Shown here in pieces: positions 5,143-12,913 of a DNA stretch of 64,000 bases; within the stretch, counting starts at the first letter, position 1; each line of letters begins with the position of its first letter. Origin of the DNA: an uncultured bacterium (GTDB lineage: Bacteria; JAGRBM01; JAHCIT01); the NCBI GenBank assembly GCA_964621525.1, contig CAZUMS010000003.1, forward strand, positions 37,129-101,128, in the 5' to 3' direction. Under the pieces are notes generated by a model. The model was not told the origin of the DNA. It worked only from the letters and a program-made list of their open reading frames with translations, and made no database searches. The translations under genes and the position numbers were made by a program.

Positions 5143-5739
5143 ATGGCGGATGAAAAGCAGTCCGGCCCCGTACACGGTGCGGGGGACAAGTTGACCAAGG
5201 CGGCACAACCCAAACCGGCGCTTCGTGCGCCCAAGCTCATGGCCGACGCCATCGGCCAGCTCATGGAGTTCTGGAATTTCAAGAGCAACCTGGGCCGCAT
5301 CTGGACGCTCCTTTATCTCTCTCCGGACCCGGTCGCCGCCGCCGATATCGCCGACCACCTGAACCTCTCCTCTGGCGCCGTCAGCATGGCGACGAATGAG
5401 CTCCTCCGCTGGAAGGCGATCAAGAAGATCCACCAGCCAGGCGAGCGCAAGGACTTCTTCACGGCCGAAACCGACCTGTGGCGGCTCATTACGGGCGTCC
5501 TGTCGGACCGCGAGCGGCGCGAGATCGAATCGGCCCTGGAGGCCTTCAAGGAAGCGCTCTCGGCGCTCGATTCCGAGAAGGACCACTACGATCCGAAGGA
5601 CTTCAGGTTCAAGAAGGAACGGATCGAGCGGATGTTCCAGCTCGCGATGATGGGCAAGACAATGCTCGACACGCTCCTGAACCAGGCCCACCTCAACATG
5701 AAGCCGATCCGCGAGCATCTGGACAAGCTGAAGAGCTGA
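5143..5739 (+). CDS. GbsR/MarR-family HTH transcriptional regulator
   Basis: 198 aa; winged-helix region LGRIWTLLYLSPDPVAAADIADHLNLSSGAVSMATNELLRWKAI typical of GbsR-type regulators; start 4 nt after the menA-like stop. Confidence 0.6.
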   Translation: MADEKQSGPVHGAGDKLTKAAQPKPALRAPKLMADAIGQLMEFWNFKSNLGRIWTLLYLSPDPVAAADIADHLNLSSGAVSMATNELLRWKAIKKIHQPGERKDFFTAETDLWRLITGVLSDRERREIESALEAFKEALSALDSEKDHYDPKDFRFKKERIERMFQLAMMGKTMLDTLLNQAHLNMKPIREHLDKLKS

Positions 5740-5756: not shown

Positions 5757-5790
5757 TGAAAAGCCCTACGCCCGCGGCCTTTTCAGGCGG
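5757..5790 (+). terminator. weak hairpin plus T-run after the regulator gene
   Basis: gaaaagccctacgcccgcggccttttc: gaaaag/cttttc arms around the ccgcgg core; imperfect. Confidence 0.3.
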
Positions 5791-5811
5791 CGGACGTTCG
5801 GGTTAATAGGC

Positions 5812-6083
5812 GGAGGGCCGGAGCCCGATCAGGGATTGGGAAAAACCGGGTTCAGCATCGTTACTGGGAGTTGCCAGCCGTTCCGCTTGCGCGGTTCAGC
5901 GATCCCGTGGCAAACCCGGATGCCGGAACCCGATGGAGGAAACCCTCTGCCGGGCGCCGGCCTCTCCAAGGTTTTCTGCCCTGGCCGCCGGAGGGAAGAA
6001 GGCCTGCGCGGCTCGATGTCCAGGTTCCGTTGCGCATCGCAGGCCTCCTTTCATTCCCGTCCGGCTTCCCGGTACTTCCGCTC
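5812..6083. repeat. conserved ~270-nt noncoding element, copy A (immediately 3' of amt1)
   Basis: Shares long identical blocks with 8086..8349: cagggattgggaaaaaccgggt (22/22), gcgatcccgtg, gaggaaaccctctgccgggcgccggcct (28/28), ccaaggt, gtccggcttcc. Not consistently coding (see findings). Confidence 0.7.
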
Positions 6084-7583
6084 TCAGCCGCGGCTTCCGT
6101 GGAGCGTATCGCCCACGTAGCACTCGATGCCGAGTTCCTTGAGGTCGAGACCCTCGACTTCCTCTTCCTCGGACACGCGGACGCCCATCACGGCTTTCAC
6201 CGCATACCAGACCACCAGGCTCGCCGGGAACGCATAGGCTCCGACAGCGACGATGCCGATGATCTGATTGATGAGCTGGCCGGCGCCGCCTCCGTAGAAG
6301 AGGCCGAGGCCGGGCTGGGCTTCTCCGCCGGCAAAGGCCGGAGCGGCGAACAGGCCCACGCAGAGCGTGCCCCAGATCCCGTTGGCGAGGTGGACCGAGA
6401 GCGCGCCGACCGGGTCGTCGATCTTCAGCTTGTCCCAGAACAGCACGCTGTAGAAGCAGAGGATGCCGCCGACCGCGCCGATCACGAACGCGCCGCCTGC
6501 CGTTACCCAGGCGCACGGGGCGGTGATCGCCACGAGGCCCGCGAGGCAGCCGTTCAGCGACATGCCAAGGTCAGGCTTGCCGAACGTGATCCAGGCGATA
6601 GCCGTCGCGGTCGCCATGCCTGCCACTGCGGCGATATTCGTCGTCATGGCGATGTGGGCGATGGCGCCGCCGTCCCAGGTCATGGTCGAGCCGGGGTTGA
6701 ACCCGAACCAGCCGAGCCACAGGATCAGCGTGCCGAGCACGACGAGCGGAATTGAGTGGGCCGGAATCGCGTTGACCTTGCCGTCGGCCGAGTACTTGCC
6801 GATACGCGGCCCGATCACGAGGATGCCGGCGAGACCCGCCCAGCCGCCCACCGAGTGGACGACCGTGGAGCCCGCGAAGTCCCAGAATCCCTTGCCGGCG
6901 AGCCAGCCGGCACCCCAGATCCACTTGCCGGGGACCGGGTAAACCAGTGCTGTCAGCAGGAATGCGAAGACAACGAAGGAGAGATACTTGTTCCGCTCGT
7001 CCACGCAGCCGGAGACGATCGTCGCGGCCGTGCCGGCGAAGGCGAGCTGGAAGAAGAACTTGCCTTCCAGCGCCACGTTCGCCCAGCCGAGGGCGCCGGT
7101 GTAAAGTTCTTCAGGACCGATAAATGGCGTGAAAGAGCCCAGGAAGCCGCTTCCCTCGCCGAACATGAGCGAGAACCCGATCACCCAGTAGGCGAGCGTC
7201 GCCGCGCCGAACACGACGAAGTTCTTGCCGAGGATCGTGGCCGCGTTCTTCTTGCGGCAGAAACCGCTCTCCACAAGCGCGAAACCGGCGTTCATGAAGA
7301 ACACCAGGAAGCCGGCGATCATCGTCCAGACCGTATCGGCCGAAAACTTGATCGCATCGGTGCGGGCCTTCAGTTCTTCAAGCTGCTTGCTCAGCTCTTC
7401 CGTCGAAGGACCGGCCGGGGCTGCCGCGGCAGCCGGTGCCGCTTCGGCGGGCGGAGCGGCCTCAGCCGGTGCGGCCGCTGCTTCGGCCGGCGGCGGCGTG
7501 TCCTGCGCCGTGACGAGGGACGGACGCCAGAGCGCCGCCCCCAGCAGCATCAGTGCGAGAATTACTGTGGATTTCTTCAACAT
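6084..7583 (-). CDS. amt: ammonium transporter (Amt/MEP family), paralog 1
   Basis: 499 aa; signal peptide plus Ala/Pro-rich linker, then the Amt core (DTVWTMIAGFLVFFMNAGFALVESG ... 11 TM). Confidence 0.9.
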   Translation of the reverse strand: MLKKSTVILALMLLGAALWRPSLVTAQDTPPPAEAAAAPAEAAPPAEAAPAAAAAPAGPSTEELSKQLEELKARTDAIKFSADTVWTMIAGFLVFFMNAGFALVESGFCRKKNAATILGKNFVVFGAATLAYWVIGFSLMFGEGSGFLGSFTPFIGPEELYTGALGWANVALEGKFFFQLAFAGTAATIVSGCVDERNKYLSFVVFAFLLTALVYPVPGKWIWGAGWLAGKGFWDFAGSTVVHSVGGWAGLAGILVIGPRIGKYSADGKVNAIPAHSIPLVVLGTLILWLGWFGFNPGSTMTWDGGAIAHIAMTTNIAAVAGMATATAIAWITFGKPDLGMSLNGCLAGLVAITAPCAWVTAGGAFVIGAVGGILCFYSVLFWDKLKIDDPVGALSVHLANGIWGTLCVGLFAAPAFAGGEAQPGLGLFYGGGAGQLINQIIGIVAVGAYAFPASLVVWYAVKAVMGVRVSEEEEVEGLDLKELGIECYVGDTLHGSRG

Positions 7584-7800
7584 GGCTTTTCCTGCCTCTC
7601 CCGTTTTTCATCGTTCGGGAACGGAACCCTTGGAAGATCACCGGCGGACCTCCGGCCTTTACAACCTGTCCGTCTGCCGGATCCATTTCAGACCCGGCGG
7701 GGATCTCTTCGGGTTCCGGACCTCGTTTCAAATGGTTTTTGTCTCTCAGGCGAGACAGGCCGGGCCGGGTGGATCGGACGGCACGGCAGTCTTTCCCACC
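7584..7800 (-). promoter_or_regulatory. amt1 5' leader (~215 nt) with conserved 5' block
   Basis: Minus-strand block gggaaagac..gtgccg..gatccacccgg.ccgg..gtct.gcctgag (plus 7741-7800) is shared with the amt2 leader (plus 10196-10245); it lies immediately downstream of the predicted sigma54 promoter. Confidence 0.5.
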
Positions 7801-7809
7801 GGGGCGGAC

Positions 7810-7825
7810 TGCACTTGGCAGGCCA
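7810..7825 (-). promoter_or_regulatory. sigma54 (RpoN) -24/-12 promoter for amt1
   Basis: Minus strand TGGCCTGCCAAGTGCA: GG and GC in canonical positions (TGGCAC-N5-TTGCA spacing). Confidence 0.55.
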
Positions 7826-8085
7826 CGATGATCTGCAGCCGGACAAAAAGCGCCTGAAGGCAGGGTTGAATCCGCCGGAAGTTCAGGACGCGACAAACAA
7901 ACTCAAGCTACTGTAAGTATAAGCGAAATTAAGGAATCCTCCCCCGGCTGAAGGCACAGCTTTCGGGGTTCATTTTTTTGTCAAGGCTACAGGCTCCCGG
8001 CCCGGAACTAGTGTCTAAATATGTTGCAAGGATGCGGCTGAGAGCCGAGGCTTTGCCCGGAAATTGTGCATCCGGACGAAAATGG

Positions 8086-8349
8086 GGGCCGGTGCCCAGC
8101 CAGGGATTGGGAAAACCGGGTCCAGTACCGTTTTGCCGGAGCCCGTCAGCCGGATCATTTGCACGATCCGGCGATCCCGTGACGGTTCCGAGTACCGGAC
8201 CTCGGTCGAGGAAACCCTCTGCCGGGCGCCGGCCTGCCCAAGGTCGTTGCGAAGCGGCGGAACCCGAAGGAGAAGAGGCACCATTGGCTGCGCGGCGGTT
8301 GCGTTGCGGTTCATGTTGCCTCCCTCCTTCAGTGTCCGGCTTCCAGGCG
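8086..8349. repeat. conserved ~265-nt noncoding element, copy B (immediately 3' of amt2)
   Basis: See copy A. Contains SD gaaggagggagg plus ATG ~36 nt after the amt2 stop (track ORF 8015..8314). Confidence 0.7.
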
Positions 8350-10038
8350 TCAGCGGGCGTGCGGGGTCTCGGACGCCTTGTCCATCACGACACCCACATA
8401 CGCGGCGCAGCCCATTTCCGGGATATCAAGACCCTCAATCTCGGCTTCCACGGGTGTCCTGAGACCGACAGTCACATCGAGCAGCTTGAAGACCGCAAAA
8501 CCGATGGCGCCCACATAGACGAAGTTCGTGAGCACGCCGATCGACTGGGCGATGAACTGGCTCGCATCTCCGTAGAAGAGGCCCTTCACCGGACCGGCAA
8601 CGCCGTTCCAGCCATCGCCGTAGGAACCGTCGGCGAAAAGACCCAGGGCGAGGCAGCCCCAGGCGCCGTTCACGCCATGGACCGCCACCGCACCTACCGG
8701 GTCGTCGATCTTGAGGACGCGCTCGATGAAGAACACGGCCTCGACCACGATGATGCCGGAGACGAGCCCGATGATGCAGGAGGCCATGGAGTTCACGAAC
8801 GCACAGGGTGCCGTGATCGCCACAAGCCCGGCGAGCATACCGTTCGCCATCATGCTGGGATCCGGCTTACCCATCCGGAAAGCCCAGCAGTAGAGCGTGG
8901 CCGCGAGCGCGCCGGTCATGGATGCGAGCATCGTGTTCACGGCTACCACTGCCAGACGAAGATCCGTGCCAGCGAGTGTTGAACCGGGGTTAAACCCGAA
9001 CCAGCCGAAAGCGAGAATAAAGGTGCCGATGATTGCCATCGGAATGTTGTGGCCGGGGATCGGGTTCGGCGAGCCGTCCTTGTTGTATTTTCCGGCGCGG
9101 GGGCCAATCAGCCATCCGCCCACGAGCGCGAGCACGCCGCCCGTCATGTGCACGACCGAGGAGCCGGCGAAATCCACATGCCCGTGACCGAGGCCGTAAT
9201 ACTTGCCCAGCGTCGCCAGGAAGCCGCCGCCCCAGACCCAGCAGCCGTAGATCGGATAAATGATCGTGCCGACGGCGAGGCCATAGAGGAAGAACGACTT
9301 GTAGTTCCAGCGTTCGGCCATGGAACCGGTGGGAATCGTCGCCGTGGTGTCCATGAACACCATCTGGAAGAGGAACAGCGCGAAGATCGAGACATCGTAG
9401 ACGTCGGATCCGAGGAAGAAGCCCTTCGTACCGAACAGCACCCAGTCGTTACCGCCCACCTTGATCGAGAAGGCGGAGTTCAGCACATCCGTGCCGCCCA
9501 GCGTGCCCAGCGCCCCGAAGCCGCCGAACATGAAAGCGAAGCCGCACACGTAGAAACCGAGCATCCCGAGCGGATAGATCAGGAAGTTCATGGCCATTGT
9601 ATGCGACGCATTCTTGGCGCGGGTGAAGCCGGTCTCGACCATGGCGAATCCGGCCTGCATGAACATGACGAGGAAGCCGGCCAGCATGGTCCACACCATG
9701 TTGATCGAAACCTTGTTCTTGCCGACCTGGTTGGCGACGTCGCCCAGGGTCAACTTACCGGCTTCCGACTGAGGAACATCGGTCATGTTGCCCGTGGCGC
9801 CGCCACTGGGATCCGGCGCCCGCGGCGAGGCCGGCGCCTCGACCGTAATGCTCATCTCCACTGGCGCGGGCGGCGCTGCCGGCGGAGCGGGTGTGGCGGC
9901 GGCCTCTGCCGCCGGCGCAGAAGTCTCCGCCGGAGGTGGTACGGTTTCGTCGGCATTGGCCCAGTGGGGAACAATCAGTAGCGCGGCTGCGAACCAGACG
10001 ATCGCCGCAAAACTCATAATCTTTCTGGATTTACTCAT
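8350..10038 (-). CDS. amt: ammonium transporter (Amt/MEP family), paralog 2
   Basis: 562 aa; signal peptide MSKSRKIMSFAAIVWFAAALLIVPHWANA, Pro/Ala-rich linker, Amt core (NMVWTMLAGFLVMFMQAGFAMVETG). About 50% identity to paralog 1. Confidence 0.9.
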   Translation of the reverse strand: MSKSRKIMSFAAIVWFAAALLIVPHWANADETVPPPAETSAPAAEAAATPAPPAAPPAPVEMSITVEAPASPRAPDPSGGATGNMTDVPQSEAGKLTLGDVANQVGKNKVSINMVWTMLAGFLVMFMQAGFAMVETGFTRAKNASHTMAMNFLIYPLGMLGFYVCGFAFMFGGFGALGTLGGTDVLNSAFSIKVGGNDWVLFGTKGFFLGSDVYDVSIFALFLFQMVFMDTTATIPTGSMAERWNYKSFFLYGLAVGTIIYPIYGCWVWGGGFLATLGKYYGLGHGHVDFAGSSVVHMTGGVLALVGGWLIGPRAGKYNKDGSPNPIPGHNIPMAIIGTFILAFGWFGFNPGSTLAGTDLRLAVVAVNTMLASMTGALAATLYCWAFRMGKPDPSMMANGMLAGLVAITAPCAFVNSMASCIIGLVSGIIVVEAVFFIERVLKIDDPVGAVAVHGVNGAWGCLALGLFADGSYGDGWNGVAGPVKGLFYGDASQFIAQSIGVLTNFVYVGAIGFAVFKLLDVTVGLRTPVEAEIEGLDIPEMGCAAYVGVVMDKASETPHAR

Positions 10039-10248
10039 GATCGGTTTCCTGTCTCTCCATGAAATTCACTGCCGCCGTTTCACTTCATCCTGCGGGAGCC
10101 CGGCGCCGGAATCCGTCGTCGGCCCTTCTGGATGGAGCAGCCGACTCAAGCTCGTCGGCGGTTTCAGCAGTGCCGTTGTTGAGGCCTCAGGCAGACGGAC
10201 CGGTCCGGGTGGATCTGGCGGCACAGTCGTCTTTCCCGTCCGAGACGA

Positions 10249-10264
10249 AGCATCAGCTATGCCA
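10249..10264 (-). promoter_or_regulatory. sigma54 (RpoN) -24/-12 promoter for amt2
   Basis: Minus strand TGGCATAGCTGATGCT: TGGCAT-N5-ATGCT with GG/GC at canonical spacing; followed by a leader conserved with amt1. Confidence 0.55.
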
Positions 10265-10460
10265 TAAAAATGAACTAAAAATTTTAGTCTATTTCCGAGA
10301 TATATTCGGAAGAAATATCGGGAATAACGATGTCGAAATTTAATTCATAAGTATATGATATTATTTATATATTTTACCAATTACGGAGATAAATACAGCA
10401 CACCCGAAGGGACGTATTATCCTTCAAATAAATTGTACTAAAAATATGTGTTCATTCTTC
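10265..10460. promoter_or_regulatory. AT-rich island (~200 bp, roughly 25-30% GC) upstream of the amt2 sigma54 promoter
   Basis: Sequence aaaaatgaactaaaaattttagtctatttccgagatatattcgg...tatatgatattatttatatattttaccaatt in a ~67% GC genome; position fits an enhancer/IHF-bending region for a sigma54 promoter. Confidence 0.45.
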
Positions 10461-10967
10461 AAACACCGGTTGAGAACCGTGCGAGGATTTCCGTAATGCC
10501 TCAAAAATTGGCGATTCGAAGACCTGTCGCCCCATTTCTGGGCACATCTGTTCTTTCACCTCTGAATCCCGCTGCCGGAATGTCCAAAAACATGCTCTGT
10601 GGAAATCATTTTCTACCTTTTATTTCACATGGTTATAAAAGTCCTACGTATTCCGAAGCTCCCGGTGGAGTTCTTGGTTTCTGCCTTGCACATTGGGGAA
10701 ACGCTGAACCGGCCTGCCAGAGGATGGGGAACGTCCCGGTCGGGACCGGAAAGCCCGGTCCATACTGTTCTGTTAAGGACAGCTGGATCAGGAGAGCGGT
10801 CGGCAAGGTGGGACGGCGCCGGGTGAAAAACCGGCGCACCGGTGGATTCGGAACCCGTTAAACCCGGCACTCCAAAGAACAAGAAGCCGGTATCAGAGCC
10901 GTCCGGCGGGAGTGCGGAGGAAATCCGCCCCGCCCATGGCAACCCGGATTCCGGGTAGCTAGGTTAG

Positions 10968-11342
<375 letters not shown>

Positions 11343-11494
11343 TCCTGGAATAAAGAGTTCAAGATATCGGCAGGCGGCAGCAGGATCCCGTGCGGCAGCC
11401 GGCCGGAGGCGGGCAAGCGGCAACTGAAAAGGTGCAGGCTCCCGGTGGAAAACCAAAGCAGGGAAAAACAAACCCAAGGAGCACTGGTGTCATT

Positions 11495-12913
11495 ATGACG
11501 ACAGGCAAAGACGTTCTGAAAATGATCAAGGACCACGGCGTCGAGATGGTGGACCTCAAGTTCACCGACTTCCTCGGCTCGTGGCAGCACAAGAGTCACC
11601 CGATCAACATGATCGACGAGGATACGTTCACCGACGGCCTCGGTTTCGACGGCAGCTCGATCCGCGGCTGGGCCGACATCCAGGAATCGGACATGCTCTC
11701 GATCCCGGACCCCTCGACCGCCCGCATCGACCCGTTCATGCAGCATCCGACGCTGTCGCTCGTCTGCGACATCGTGGATCCCATCACCCGCCAGCCGTAT
11801 TCCCGCGACCCGCGCTATATCGCCAGGAAGGCCGAGGCCTACCTGAAGTCGACCGGTATCGGCGACACGGCCTATATCGGGCCGGAGCCGGAATTCTTCA
11901 TTTTTGACGACATCCGGTACGAGGTCGGCCAGCACAAGTCGTTCGTCTCGATCGACTCGGGCGAGGCCCACTGGAACTCGGGCCGCGACGAAGGCGGCAA
12001 CCAGGGCTACAAGATCCGCCCGAAGGAAGGCTACTTCCCGGTTTCCCCGTTCGACCAGCAGCAGGACATCCGCACGGAAATGTGCCTCGTCATGCAGAAG
12101 GTCGGCATCGCGGTCGAAACGCAGCACCACGAAGTCGCCACTGCCGGCCAGGCCGAGATCGACATGGTGTTCGACTCGCTGCTGAACATGGCCGACAAGG
12201 TGATGTGGTACAAGTACATCTGCCGCAACGTCGCCAAGCGCCACGGCAAGGTCGTGACGTTCATGCCGAAGCCCATGCCGGCCGACAACGGGTCGGGCAT
12301 GCACACCCACCAGTCGGTGTGGAAGGGCGGCAAGAACCTGTTCGCGGGCAGCGGCTACGGCGGACTGTCCGAGTTCGGCCTCTACTACATCGGCGGCATC
12401 CTGAAGCACGCCAAGGCTCTCAACGCCTTCACGAACCCGACGCTGAACAGCTACCGCCGTCTGGTTCCGGGCTTCGAGGCGCCGGTGTCCCTGGCCTACT
12501 CGTGCCGTAACCGCTCGGCCTCCTGCCGCATCCCGATGTACAGCAACAGCCCGAAGTCCAAGCGTGTGGAAGTCCGCTTCCCCGACGCGACCTGCAATCC
12601 GTACATCGCTTTCGCCGCCATGCTCATGGCCGGCCTCGACGGTGTTCAGAACAAGATCAACCCGGGCGATGCGCTGGACAAGAACCTGTACGATCTCTCG
12701 CCGGAAGAGCTCGCCAACGTGCCGCAGGCCTGCGGCTCGCTGGAAGAGGCGCTCGAGGCTCTGGAGAACGACCACAAGTTCCTCCTGAAGGGCGACGTCT
12801 TCACGAAGGACGTGATCGACACGCAGCTCGCCTGGAAGCGTCACCACGAAATCGACGTGGCCCGTTTCACGGTTCCGCCGATCGAGCACAAGCTCTACTT
12901 CGACGCCGGCTGA
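11495..12913 (+). CDS. glnA: glutamine synthetase type I
   Basis: 472 aa from [32 protein letters not shown]; SD aaggag 15 nt upstream; GS-I motifs ([25 protein letters not shown]). The track ORF begins 35 codons upstream at a GTG. Confidence 0.95.

What the first reader, a model, noticed from the sequence alone, without database searches (positions are those of the whole stretch)
5812..6083. Duplicated ~265-nt conserved noncoding element sits directly after the stop codon of BOTH ammonium-transporter paralogs
The two amt genes are ancient paralogs (~50% amino-acid identity; coding DNA largely diverged). Yet the ~265 nt immediately downstream of each stop codon (5812-6083 after amt1; 8086-8349 after amt2) share long runs of perfect identity in the same order: cagggattgggaaaaaccgggt (22 nt), gcgatcccgtg, gaggaaaccctctgccgggcgccggcct (28 nt), ccaaggt, gtccggcttcc. 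Noncoding DNA conserved better than the flanking CDS implies purifying selection or gene conversion on a functional RNA or DNA element. Candidates: a 3'UTR-derived sRNA, an RNA stability/processing element, or a nitrogen-regulator binding platform. Each amt lacks the usual downstream glnK, so this element occupies the position where a PII gene is normally found. I do not recognise it as a known Rfam family.
Basis: seen in the sequence. Interest (0 to 1): 0.8.

Follow-up and report, generated by a model that had tools for sequence, protein, structure and literature searches.

The report
New structured RNA after ammonium-transporter genes
Both ammonium-transporter genes in this window are followed by a copy of a previously undescribed RNA of about 168 nt that folds into a long hairpin; it recurs after every such gene in a small group of uncultured bacteria, always with a matching conserved leader at the front of the same gene, so it is probably a new post-transcriptional control element for ammonium uptake.

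Summary
The amt genes lie on the minus strand. The conserved element is a 167-168 nt core (5810-5976 and 8081-8248) that starts about 100 nt after each stop codon; it is not 265 nt directly after the stop.

The two cores match at 76% identity over 161 nt (E 3e-24). The two Amt proteins are only 41-45% identical.

I found eight copies in five uncultured genomes or contigs, each after an amt gene. They fold into one irregular 54-bp hairpin. 95% of pair cells are paired, and 20 pairs show compensatory changes, against 1-5 in slid controls.

G-U pairs outnumber A-C pairs 34 to 9, and folding z-scores are stronger on the amt-sense strand, so the RNA is read in the amt sense. Terminator-like hairpins with a U-tract follow four copies, placing the element in the 3'UTR.

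There is no Rfam, plasmid or phage match, no consistent ORF and no glnK remnant.

The same eight genes, and only those, also carry a sigma54-like promoter, a conserved 5' leader hairpin and a conserved RBS block.

Function is inferred. The invariant pyrimidine-rich internal loop is complementary to the mRNA's 5'-terminal GGGAAAGA and to its SD region. That suggests 5'-3' UTR pairing of the icaR or hbs type. A released sRNA or a protein/RNase platform remain serious rivals.

The parts
5810..5976 (-). 3' element, copy 1 (after amt1): 167-nt irregular hairpin RNA
   Evidence: R1 hit of 192.9 bits. The MFE fold equals the consensus fold, z = -4.95. Covariation.
8081..8248 (-). 3' element, copy 2 (after amt2): 168-nt irregular hairpin RNA
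   Evidence: R1 hit of 157.6 bits. MFE z = -6.95.
5934..5942 (-). Copy 1, 5' strand of internal loop A: UUUCCUCCA, CCUCC-containing (anti-SD-like)
   Evidence: UUUCCUC is invariant in all 8 copies and mostly unpaired. Copy 2 equivalent: 8206-8214.
5838..5845 (-). Copy 1, 3' strand of internal loop A: UUUUUCCC
   Evidence: UUUCCCAAUCC is invariant. It is complementary to the 5'-terminal GGGAAAGA of the amt leaders. Copy 2 equivalent: 8109-8115.
5901..5907 (-). Copy 1, 7-nt bulge B: CGGGAUC
   Evidence: GGGAUCG is invariant in 8/8 copies and unpaired in the consensus and MFE folds. Copy 2 equivalent: 8173-8179.
5998..6048 (-). Spacer hairpin S between the amt1 stop and the element, with a purine-rich GGAGG 5' arm
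   Evidence: MFE folds of the spacers: a hairpin S in 6 of 8 copies with differing sequences; L003_amtB has a canonical terminator hairpin in its place and L003_amtA (30-nt spacer) has none. Copy 2 equivalent: 8269-8327.
5758..5797 (-). GC-rich hairpin followed by CUUUUC, about 12 nt after copy 1: probable intrinsic terminator of the amt1 transcript
   Evidence: Read from the sequence and its fold. Equivalent hairpin plus U4-5 follows the element in L004_amt1, L003_amtA and L009. The consensus terminator scan did not list it.
6084..7583 (-). amt1 CDS (499 aa, Amt family)
8350..10038 (-). amt2 CDS (562 aa, PF00909)
7734..7802 (-). Conserved 5' leader hairpin of amt1. It begins GGGAAAGAC at about +1 to +3 of the promoter; the apical loop holds the invariant GAUCCACC.
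   Evidence: Alignment A7/A8. R2 hit of 95 bits. Pair counts (weak covariation).
10175..10242 (-). Conserved 5' leader hairpin of amt2
   Evidence: R2 hit of 74 bits.
7811..7825 (-). Sigma54-type promoter match TGGC-N8-TGC upstream of amt1
   Evidence: TGGC and TGC are invariant in all 8 upstream regions.
10250..10264 (-). Sigma54-type promoter match upstream of amt2
7587..7602 (-). Conserved purine-rich RBS block GGGAGAGGCAGGAAAA of amt1 (amt2 equivalent: 10045-10058)
   Evidence: Present before all 8 amt start codons.

Best explanation
Shown:
- The element is a transcribed, structured RNA domain in the 3'UTR of amt mRNAs. It is a 54-bp irregular hairpin of about 168 nt.
- Three unpaired segments are invariant: UUUCCUC(C), (C)GGGAUC and UUUUUCCC.
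- It occurs after every amt gene in a narrow uncultured clade.
- It always comes with a sigma54-type promoter, a conserved leader that begins at the mRNA 5' end, and a conserved purine-rich RBS block.

Inferred mechanism:
- The two pyrimidine-rich strands of the internal loop pair with purine-rich parts of the amt 5'UTR. UUUUUCCC would pair with the 5'-terminal GGGAAAGA, and UUUCCUCC with the SD block GG(C)AGGAAA. The bulge GGAUC may also kiss the leader loop GAUCC.
- This could happen within one mRNA, or after the 3' domain is released and acts on the two amt mRNAs.
- The result would tune translation initiation and 5'-end-dependent decay of amt mRNA once sigma54/NtrC has switched transcription on.

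My confidence that it is a structured sense-strand 3'UTR RNA is about 0.9. My confidence in the pairing mechanism itself is about 0.35; the figure given below is for the mechanism.
For: Structure:
- 95.4% of pair cells are paired.
- 20 of 54 pairs have double (compensatory) changes, against 1-5 in slid controls. 0 of 500 shuffles reach the observed covariation score, percentage paired or number of double-change pairs.
- A MAFFT-only alignment of six copies gives 12 compensatory pairs.
- MFE folds of single copies reproduce the consensus fold.

Strand:
- 34 G-U cells against 9 A-C cells.
- z = -4.95 and -6.95 on the sense strand, against -2.26 on the antisense strand.

Inside the transcript:
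- A hairpin plus U-tract lies 10-25 nt after the element in 4 copies.

Association:
- 8 of 8 copies follow an amt gene, in 92 kb from 5 genomes.
- Leader model R2 hits only the same 8 genes in 152 kb.
- The RBS block is conserved in 8/8.

Pairing:
- GGGAAAG(A) against UUUUCCC, and GAUCC against GGAUC, are complementary in all or 7 of 8 cognate pairs.
- The 5' terminus is the best duplex site for loop A3 within the whole 5'UTR in 8 of 8 genes, at -9.9 to -15.5 kcal/mol. The RBS is the best site for loop A5 in 5 of 8.
- Shuffle P is 0.018 for A3 and 0.005 for A3 and B jointly.
- The three site pairs lie in antiparallel colinear order.

Precedents: the icaR 3'UTR anti-SD pairing (PMC3868564) and the hbs 5'/3'UTR 14-bp interaction (PMC5737220).
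Against: - All the proposed intermolecular pairs involve invariant nucleotides, so no covariation supports them.
- The complementarity was found post hoc.
- Window-wide, about 8 other sites pair with loop A3 as well as or better than the amt1 5' end. The amt 5'UTR sites for loop A5 and bulge B are not in the top 10.
- Bulge B alone has shuffle P = 0.24.
- In L011 and window copy 2 the U-run is shorter or interrupted, which weakens the A3 duplex to 6-7 bp.
- Pairing the 5' GGGAAAGA would require opening the base of the leader hairpin.
- In L003_amtB a canonical terminator precedes the element.
- There are no expression data.
Confidence: 0.35

Rival explanations
1. Protein- or RNase-recognition platform. 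The rod with invariant loops and bulge is bound by a dedicated RNA-binding protein, or cut by RNase III or RNase E, and sets amt mRNA stability from the 3' end. This would be retroregulation or an exonuclease barrier. The leader is a second site for the same factor.
For: - The long, mostly double-stranded rod (54 bp) with sequence-invariant internal loop and bulge is typical of protein-recognised RNAs.
- It is very stable, at -87 and -99 kcal/mol.
- It sits just upstream of terminator hairpins.
- Strict co-occurrence with the leader fits a shared trans factor equally well.
- Regulation from a bacterial 3'UTR has precedents, such as the L17 downstream element (PMC2864571).
Against: - No candidate binding protein was identified in the neighbourhood.
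- A mere exonuclease barrier would not need invariant unpaired sequences, or a separate terminator downstream.
- This idea does not explain why the invariant loop strands are complementary to the invariant 5' terminus (P about 0.02).
Confidence: 0.3
2. A 3'UTR-derived small RNA. The domain plus the terminator is cut from the amt mRNA under nitrogen limitation and acts in trans on other mRNAs through its C/U-rich loops, as GlnZ does from the glnA 3'UTR.
For: - It lies in the 3'UTR of sigma54-type nitrogen genes and shares their terminator.
- A semi-conserved single-stranded A-rich tail, GAAAACCUU, immediately 5' of the rod is a plausible RNase E entry site.
- The conserved unpaired CCUCC and UCCC tracts could mask SD sequences.
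- Precedent: GlnZ (PMC9731577).
Against: - At 168 nt and almost fully base-paired, it is unlike typical seed-plus-terminator sRNAs.
- The U-tract terminator is not evident after the amt2-type copies.
- Two diverged copies per genome (72% identical) are each tied to an amt gene, where a single sRNA gene would be expected.
- Anti-SD loops have low target specificity.
- Processing cannot be tested here.
Confidence: 0.17
3. Selfish palindromic repeat (MITE, REP or ERIC-like) that happened to insert after the amt genes.
For: The element is an imperfect long palindrome with GC-rich terminal inverted arms, GGCCGG...CCGGCC. ERIC-type repeats also fold into hairpins (own knowledge).
Against: - Only 2 copies occur in 64 kb, and 8 of 8 copies in 92 kb are after amt genes.
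- No target-site duplication is visible at the ends.
- No match in plasmids, phages or viral contigs.
- The strict pattern scan found it in only one other genome contig among 185,579 species genomes and one metagenome contig.
- The G-U asymmetry and invariant loops argue for RNA-level selection.
Confidence: 0.03
4. DNA-level element, such as a regulator-binding or cruciform site, or neutral similarity left by recent duplication or gene conversion of the flanks.
For: The invariant GATC-containing blocks could in principle be protein sites on DNA. In L003 a CDS was exchanged between the conserved flanks, so recombination does occur here.
Against: - 34 G-U cells against 9 A-C cells, and the strand-asymmetric z-scores, point to RNA.
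- Compensatory changes keep the helices while the sequence drifts to 63-83% identity.
- Within-genome copies are not homogenised, and amt1-type copies group across genomes.
- The element is conserved in genomes whose Amt1 is only 75-77% identical.
Confidence: 0.04

Closest known systems
icaR mRNA 3'UTR-5'UTR pairing in Staphylococcus aureus (PMC3868564)
   Same: A pyrimidine-rich (UCCCC-type, anti-SD) motif in a long bacterial 3'UTR is complementary to the SD region of the same mRNA. The proposed effect is on translation and decay.
   Different: There is no sequence or structural homology. Here the C/U tracts sit in an invariant internal loop of a 168-nt rod. The strongest complementarity is to the 5' terminus rather than to the SD. 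The host gene, phylum and promoter type differ, and nothing is experimentally shown.
Bacillus subtilis hbs mRNA 5'/3'-UTR interaction (PMC5737220)
   Same: A long-range duplex between the extreme 5' region and the 3'UTR modulates ribonuclease access.
   Different: hbs uses one 14-bp duplex. Here there would be 6-11 bp at the 5' end plus two short auxiliary contacts. The RNases involved are unknown.
GlnZ, an sRNA released from the glnA 3'UTR in Enterobacteriaceae (PMC9731577)
   Same: An RNA encoded in the 3'UTR of an NtrC/sigma54-controlled nitrogen-assimilation gene.
   Different: The host gene differs (amt, not glnA). There is no Rfam or other sequence match. This element is much more base-paired, has two copies per genome, and its processing is not shown.
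L17 downstream element and other 3'UTR cis-regulatory motifs (PMC2864571)
   Same: A conserved structured motif placed after the coding region it is presumed to regulate, which is rare in bacteria.
   Different: An unrelated structure, with no evidence that Amt or any other protein binds it.
Glutamine riboswitch (glnA RNA) and Downstream-peptide motif (PMC2864571)
   Same: RNA motifs associated with nitrogen genes, including ammonium transporters.
   Different: Those are small 5'UTR aptamers of cyanobacteria and marine bacteria. No match here at E<=10. This element has a different size and position.
REP/ERIC-type palindromic repeats (own knowledge)
   Same: Imperfect palindromes of 100-170 nt in intergenic DNA that are transcribed into hairpins and can stabilise upstream mRNA.
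   Different: Those are dispersed in many copies regardless of gene. This element is found only after amt genes and has invariant loop sequences.

Membership tests
Any Rfam 15 family (including glnA RNA, Downstream-peptide, 6S RNA and known sRNAs) | Covariance-model score at or near the family's gathering threshold | tested here: not met
   No hit at gathering thresholds in the 64 kb. The best hits at E<=10 over the elements and leaders are 10-18 bit miRNA/lncRNA noise.
3'UTR-derived sRNA (GlnZ/CpxQ type) | Lies between the stop codon and the mRNA's own intrinsic terminator | tested here: inconclusive
   A hairpin plus U4-5 lies 10-25 nt after the element in 4 of 8 copies. This is unclear after the amt2-type copies, and in L003_amtB a terminator precedes the element.
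3'UTR-derived sRNA (GlnZ/CpxQ type) | Released as a discrete stable species by RNase processing; a conserved single-stranded seed | not testable with these tools
   No transcript data. Conserved unpaired tracts exist, but they are internal loops of a rod rather than a 5' seed.
icaR/hbs-type 5'-3' UTR pairing | Conserved complementarity between the 3'UTR motif and the 5'UTR/SD of the same mRNA | tested here: met
   GGGAAAG(A)/UUUUCCC is complementary in 7-8 of 8 cognate pairs and is the best 5'UTR site in 8/8. RBS/UUUCCUCC is the best site in 5/8. Shuffle P = 0.018. However, the analysis was post hoc and specificity across the window is low.
icaR/hbs-type 5'-3' UTR pairing | Demonstrated duplex and an effect on translation or decay (compensatory mutants) | not testable with these tools
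   The partners are invariant, so natural covariation gives no information.
MITE / REP / ERIC-like repeat | Many dispersed copies irrespective of the neighbouring gene; target-site duplications | tested here: not met
   8 of 8 copies follow amt genes, with none elsewhere in 92 kb. No flanking direct repeats. No plasmid, phage or viral match.
Intrinsic terminator | GC-rich hairpin immediately followed by a U-tract | tested here: not met
   The 3' flanks of the rod vary (CCGCCUAUUAAC, CAUUUUCGU, CAUCCUUAAAC and others). Separate terminator hairpins follow.
Small protein-coding ORF or glnK pseudogene | Conserved reading frame with 3n indels; similarity to P-II | tested here: not met
   Indels of 1-2 nt separate the copies, every sense frame has stop codons in some copies, and the ORFs differ in frame between copies 1 and 2. 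tblastn with P-II gives E>=0.08. The 99-aa ORF over copy 2 has no homologue among 5.8 billion proteins other than itself.
Sigma54-dependent promoter (for the associated upstream module) | GG at -24 and GC at -12 with exact spacing (TGGC-N8-TGC) | tested here: met
   Invariant in all 8 upstream regions at a fixed distance from the leader. The pattern alone is not enriched in the window: 9 found against 9.45 expected. Activity is not tested.

The most novel reading that the evidence does not exclude
The amt genes of this clade carry a bipartite 5'/3' UTR RNA device. The internal loop of the 3' rod clamps both the 5'-terminal nucleotides and the Shine-Dalgarno region of the same mRNA, and a bulge-loop kiss reaches the leader hairpin. 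This closes the bacterial mRNA into a loop and gates translation and decay of an ammonium transporter. The device may respond to a nitrogen signal (a protein or a metabolite) in a lineage where amt is not linked to glnK. The modules also seem portable: in one genome the CDS between them has been swapped.
Probability: 0.15. Interest if true: 0.85.

Novelty: new variant of a known kind. Interest (0 to 1): 0.58.

Why it matters
Conserved structured elements in bacterial 3'UTRs are rare, and none has been linked to ammonium transport. This one has unusually clean covariation for so few sequences. It is tied one-to-one to amt genes of two distant paralog classes, and it is coupled to a conserved leader that starts at the mRNA 5' end. 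If the predicted 5'-3' contacts are real, it would be a natural, evolutionarily conserved example of closed-loop control of a bacterial mRNA. It would also add a post-transcriptional layer to the sigma54/NtrC/P-II control of ammonium uptake. Even if not, it is a candidate new RNA family suitable for submission to Rfam. Limits: it is known only from five uncultured genomes or contigs, the host phylum is unresolved, and there is no experimental handle yet.

Tried and rejected
1. Coding sORF. An SD-like GGAGG plus ATG follows both stop codons. However, the frames differ across the core, indels are not multiples of three, and stop codons occur. The 99-aa ORF has no homologues.

2. glnK remnant. 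No similarity.

3. Known RNA families. Four Rfam scans found nothing.

4. The apical GNRA tetraloop as a conserved feature. It held in the first six copies but not in L009 or L011, so I dropped it.

5. L002 (an Acidobacteriaceae MAG) from the genome pattern scan is a chance match inside a CDS.

6. The 21-bit R1 hit after amt in L007 is just a GC-rich terminator.

7. More distant amt loci lack both the element and the leader. These are L007, L008 and L013-L018: Amt1-type at 67-68% identity and Amt2-type at 74-77%. Two further look-ups returned no DNA.

8. Mobile-element origin. No plasmid, phage or viral matches.

9. Host taxonomy. Cluster look-ups gave no names, so the phylum remains unknown.

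10. Trans-target prediction. The loop complements are too short and too common in this GC-rich DNA to be specific.

11. Literature. No paper describing an amt 3'UTR motif was found.

Full report
**Observation**

The window holds two ammonium-transporter genes on the minus strand: amt1 at 6084-7583 (499 aa) and amt2 at 8350-10038 (562 aa).

blastn of either flank against the whole window finds the other one: 161 nt, 75.8% identity, E 3e-24. It finds nothing else. Four of the five quoted identity runs are exact. The '22-nt' run is broken by a 1-nt indel in copy 2.

The proteins are 41% identical by BLASTP and 45% by global alignment. Their coding DNA is 57% identical, and 47% at third codon positions. 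Alignable flanks at 72-76% identity are therefore unexpected.

**Extent and relatives**

A strict two-block pattern was scanned over 185,579 species genomes and over the JGI metagenome collection. It returned one real genome hit, L003 (a MAG labelled 'uncultured bacterium', about 77% nucleotide identity, syntenic). It also returned one metagenome contig, L004 (86% identity, syntenic), and one chance hit inside a CDS, L002.

Amt homologues were then traced back to their contigs. This added L009 (identical to L010) and L011 (identical to L012), whose Amt1 is 77% and 75% identical to the window protein.

In total there are eight distinct copies in five genomes or contigs. Each lies after an amt gene, and every amt gene in those loci has one.

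The alignment shows that the conserved unit is a 167-173 nt core, at window 5810-5976 and 8081-8248. The spacer between the stop codon and the core is 97-113 nt in seven copies and 30 nt in L003_amtA. It is not conserved in sequence.

Amt loci of more distant relatives lack the element. These include Amt1-type loci at 67-68% identity, some with Planctomycete-type neighbouring genes. They also include Amt2-type loci at 74-77% identity, two of which have a P-II gene close by (L008, L018).

**Structure**

RNAalifold on a plain MAFFT alignment of six copies predicts one long irregular hairpin of 54 bp, with 12 compensatory pairs.

On the eight-copy alignment:
- 95.4% of pair cells are standard pairs.
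- 20 of 54 pairs have changes on both sides.
- 0 of 500 column shuffles reach the observed covariation score, percentage paired or number of double-change pairs.
- Sliding the partners by 1-3 columns leaves 28-51% paired and only 1-5 double-change pairs.

Single-sequence MFE folds reproduce the same rod at -86.6 and -99 kcal/mol, with z = -4.95 and -6.95.

The strand is the amt-sense strand. There are 34 G-U cells against 9 A-C cells, so pairing would drop from 95.4% to 89.6% on the other strand. The opposite strand also folds with z of only -2.26.

The longest invariant runs are:
- UUUCCUC, the 5' strand of internal loop A.
- GGGAUCG, a 7-nt bulge.
- UUUCCCAAUCC, the 3' strand of loop A plus the adjoining helix.
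- CCGG in the basal helix.

An apical GNRA loop seen in six copies is not kept in L009 or L011.

**Transcript context**

Terminator-like hairpins followed by four or five U residues lie 10-25 nt after the element in window copy 1, L004_amt1, L003_amtA and L009. There, the element sits inside the 3'UTR.

Six of eight spacers fold into a second hairpin, S. Its sequence varies, and its 5' arm is purine-rich (GGAGG). L003_amtA has no such hairpin. In L003_amtB the spacer hairpin is a canonical terminator, which remains unexplained.

The element is not coding. Indels of 1 and 2 nt separate the copies, each sense frame has stop codons in some copies, and the ORFs over copies 1 and 2 use different frames. 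The 99-aa ORF over copy 2 has no relative among 5.8 billion proteins. The element has no similarity to P-II.

No Rfam family matches, even at E<=10. There is no match in plasmids, phages or viral contigs.

**A matching upstream module**

Aligning the regions upstream of the eight amt genes revealed three further conserved pieces.

- A sigma54-type promoter, TGGC-N8-TGC, is invariant in all eight (window 7811-7825 and 10250-10264).
- A near-invariant leader follows 10-12 nt later, at about the predicted +1: GGGAAAGAC...GAUCCACC...GCCUGA.
- The leader folds into a hairpin with an 11-nt loop (window 7734-7802 and 10175-10242).
- Covariation in the leader is weak: 2 double-change pairs and 97% paired.
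- The purine-rich RBS block GGGAGAGGCAGGAAA lies before all eight start codons.

A covariance model of the leader hits only these eight genes in 152 kb. It does not hit the P-II/glnA operon or any element-less amt locus.

The locus is a nitrogen-assimilation island. P-II (10968-11342) and glnA (11354-12913) lie divergent from amt2, across an AT-rich gap.

**Evolution**

Amt1-type copies group across genomes, at 79-95% identity. Copies within one genome are only 72-79% identical. The duplication is therefore old, and the similarity is not a product of recent gene conversion.

In L003, the unit at the amt1 position has an amt2-type CDS (81% identical to window amt2). It sits between an amt1-type leader/RBS and an amt1-type 3' element (79% identical to copy 1). 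The UTR modules evidently persist while the CDS between them is exchanged.

**Mechanism (inferred)**

The invariant unpaired segments of the 3' rod each have conserved complements in the cognate 5'UTR.

- Loop strand UUUUUCCC against the 5'-terminal GGGAAAGA. This is the best duplex site in the whole 5'UTR in 8 of 8 genes, at -9.9 to -15.5 kcal/mol.
- Bulge GGAUC against the leader loop GAUCC.
- Loop strand UUUCCUCC against the RBS GG(C)AGGAAA. This is the best site in 5 of 8 genes.

The three pairs lie in antiparallel colinear order. Shuffling the leader gives P = 0.018 for the first contact, 0.24 for the second and 0.005 for both together.

The weaknesses are serious:
- The analysis is post hoc.
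- The partners are invariant, so there is no covariation to test.
- About eight other window sites match loop A3 as well or better.
- The 5'UTR sites for loop A5 and bulge B are not among the ten best in the window.

I therefore rate 5'-3' UTR pairing only slightly above a protein/RNase platform. This pairing could occur in cis, or after release of the 3' domain. It resembles icaR (PMC3868564) and hbs (PMC5737220). A trans-acting 3'UTR-derived sRNA of the GlnZ kind (PMC9731577) also remains open. Selfish-repeat, DNA-site and neutral explanations are poorly supported.

**Comparison and novelty**

The element is not a member of any known RNA family. It works most like known 3'UTR regulatory elements, and it may differ by being half of a conserved two-ended UTR system on a sigma54-type transporter gene. 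I file it as a new variant of a known kind.

The sample is small: 8 copies in a narrow clade of unknown phylum. R-scape was not run, and no expression data exist.

Noticed in passing
window 7734-7825 (-) and 10175-10264 (-): Every amt gene that carries the 3' element also has an invariant sigma54-type TGGC-N8-TGC promoter. A leader hairpin of about 69 nt follows, beginning GGGAAAGAC at about +1. It has no Rfam match and occurs only upstream of these 8 genes.
   Followed up: yes
window 7587-7602 (-) and 10045-10058 (-): A purine-rich RBS block, GGGAGAGGCAGGAAA(A), is conserved before all 8 amt start codons, although the rest of the 5'UTR varies in sequence and length (116-256 nt).
   Followed up: partly
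window 5998-6048 (-) and 8269-8327 (-): A second, sequence-variable hairpin (S) lies between the stop codon and the core element in 6 of 8 copies. Its 5' arm holds an SD-like GGAGG, followed by an ATG in several copies. The resulting ORFs are not conserved in frame.
   Followed up: partly
L003 4837-4949 (-): In L003_amtB a canonical intrinsic terminator (a 13-bp GC-rich stem plus UGUUUUG) sits between the amt stop codon and the 3' element. In four other copies the terminator follows the element instead.
   Followed up: no
L003 2100-4400 (-): The unit at the amt1 position in L003 has an amt2-type CDS (81% nucleotide identity to window amt2) between an amt1-type leader/RBS and an amt1-type 3' element. 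The CDS has been swapped between conserved UTR modules.
   Followed up: partly
window 10968-12913 (+): A P-II gene immediately followed by glnA (glutamine synthetase) lies divergent from amt2. The locus is a nitrogen-assimilation island, and P-II is present even though no glnK follows the amt genes.
   Followed up: partly
window 10200-10500: A strongly AT-rich stretch (GC 0.33-0.37 against 0.64 for the window) lies in the divergent intergenic region between amt2 and P-II/glnA. It may hold activator- or bending-protein sites.
   Followed up: no
window 7380-7500 (-), Amt1 residues about 27-75: After its signal peptide, Amt1 has a Pro/Ala-rich low-complexity segment and a short charged helix (STEELSKQLEELKARTDAIK) before the transporter core. 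Amt2 has a different long N-terminal extension.
   Followed up: no
window 5143-5739 (+): A gene for a MarR-like HTH protein (198 aa; weak PF12802 hit, below the gathering cutoff) converges on amt1. The same arrangement, with UbiA, polyprenyl synthase and DUF7436 genes behind it, is kept in L003 and L009, and the convergent HTH-type gene also in L004 and L011.
   Followed up: no
L002 5109-5215: The pattern-scan hit in an Acidobacteriaceae MAG is a chance match inside coding sequence and has no similarity to the element.
   Followed up: yes
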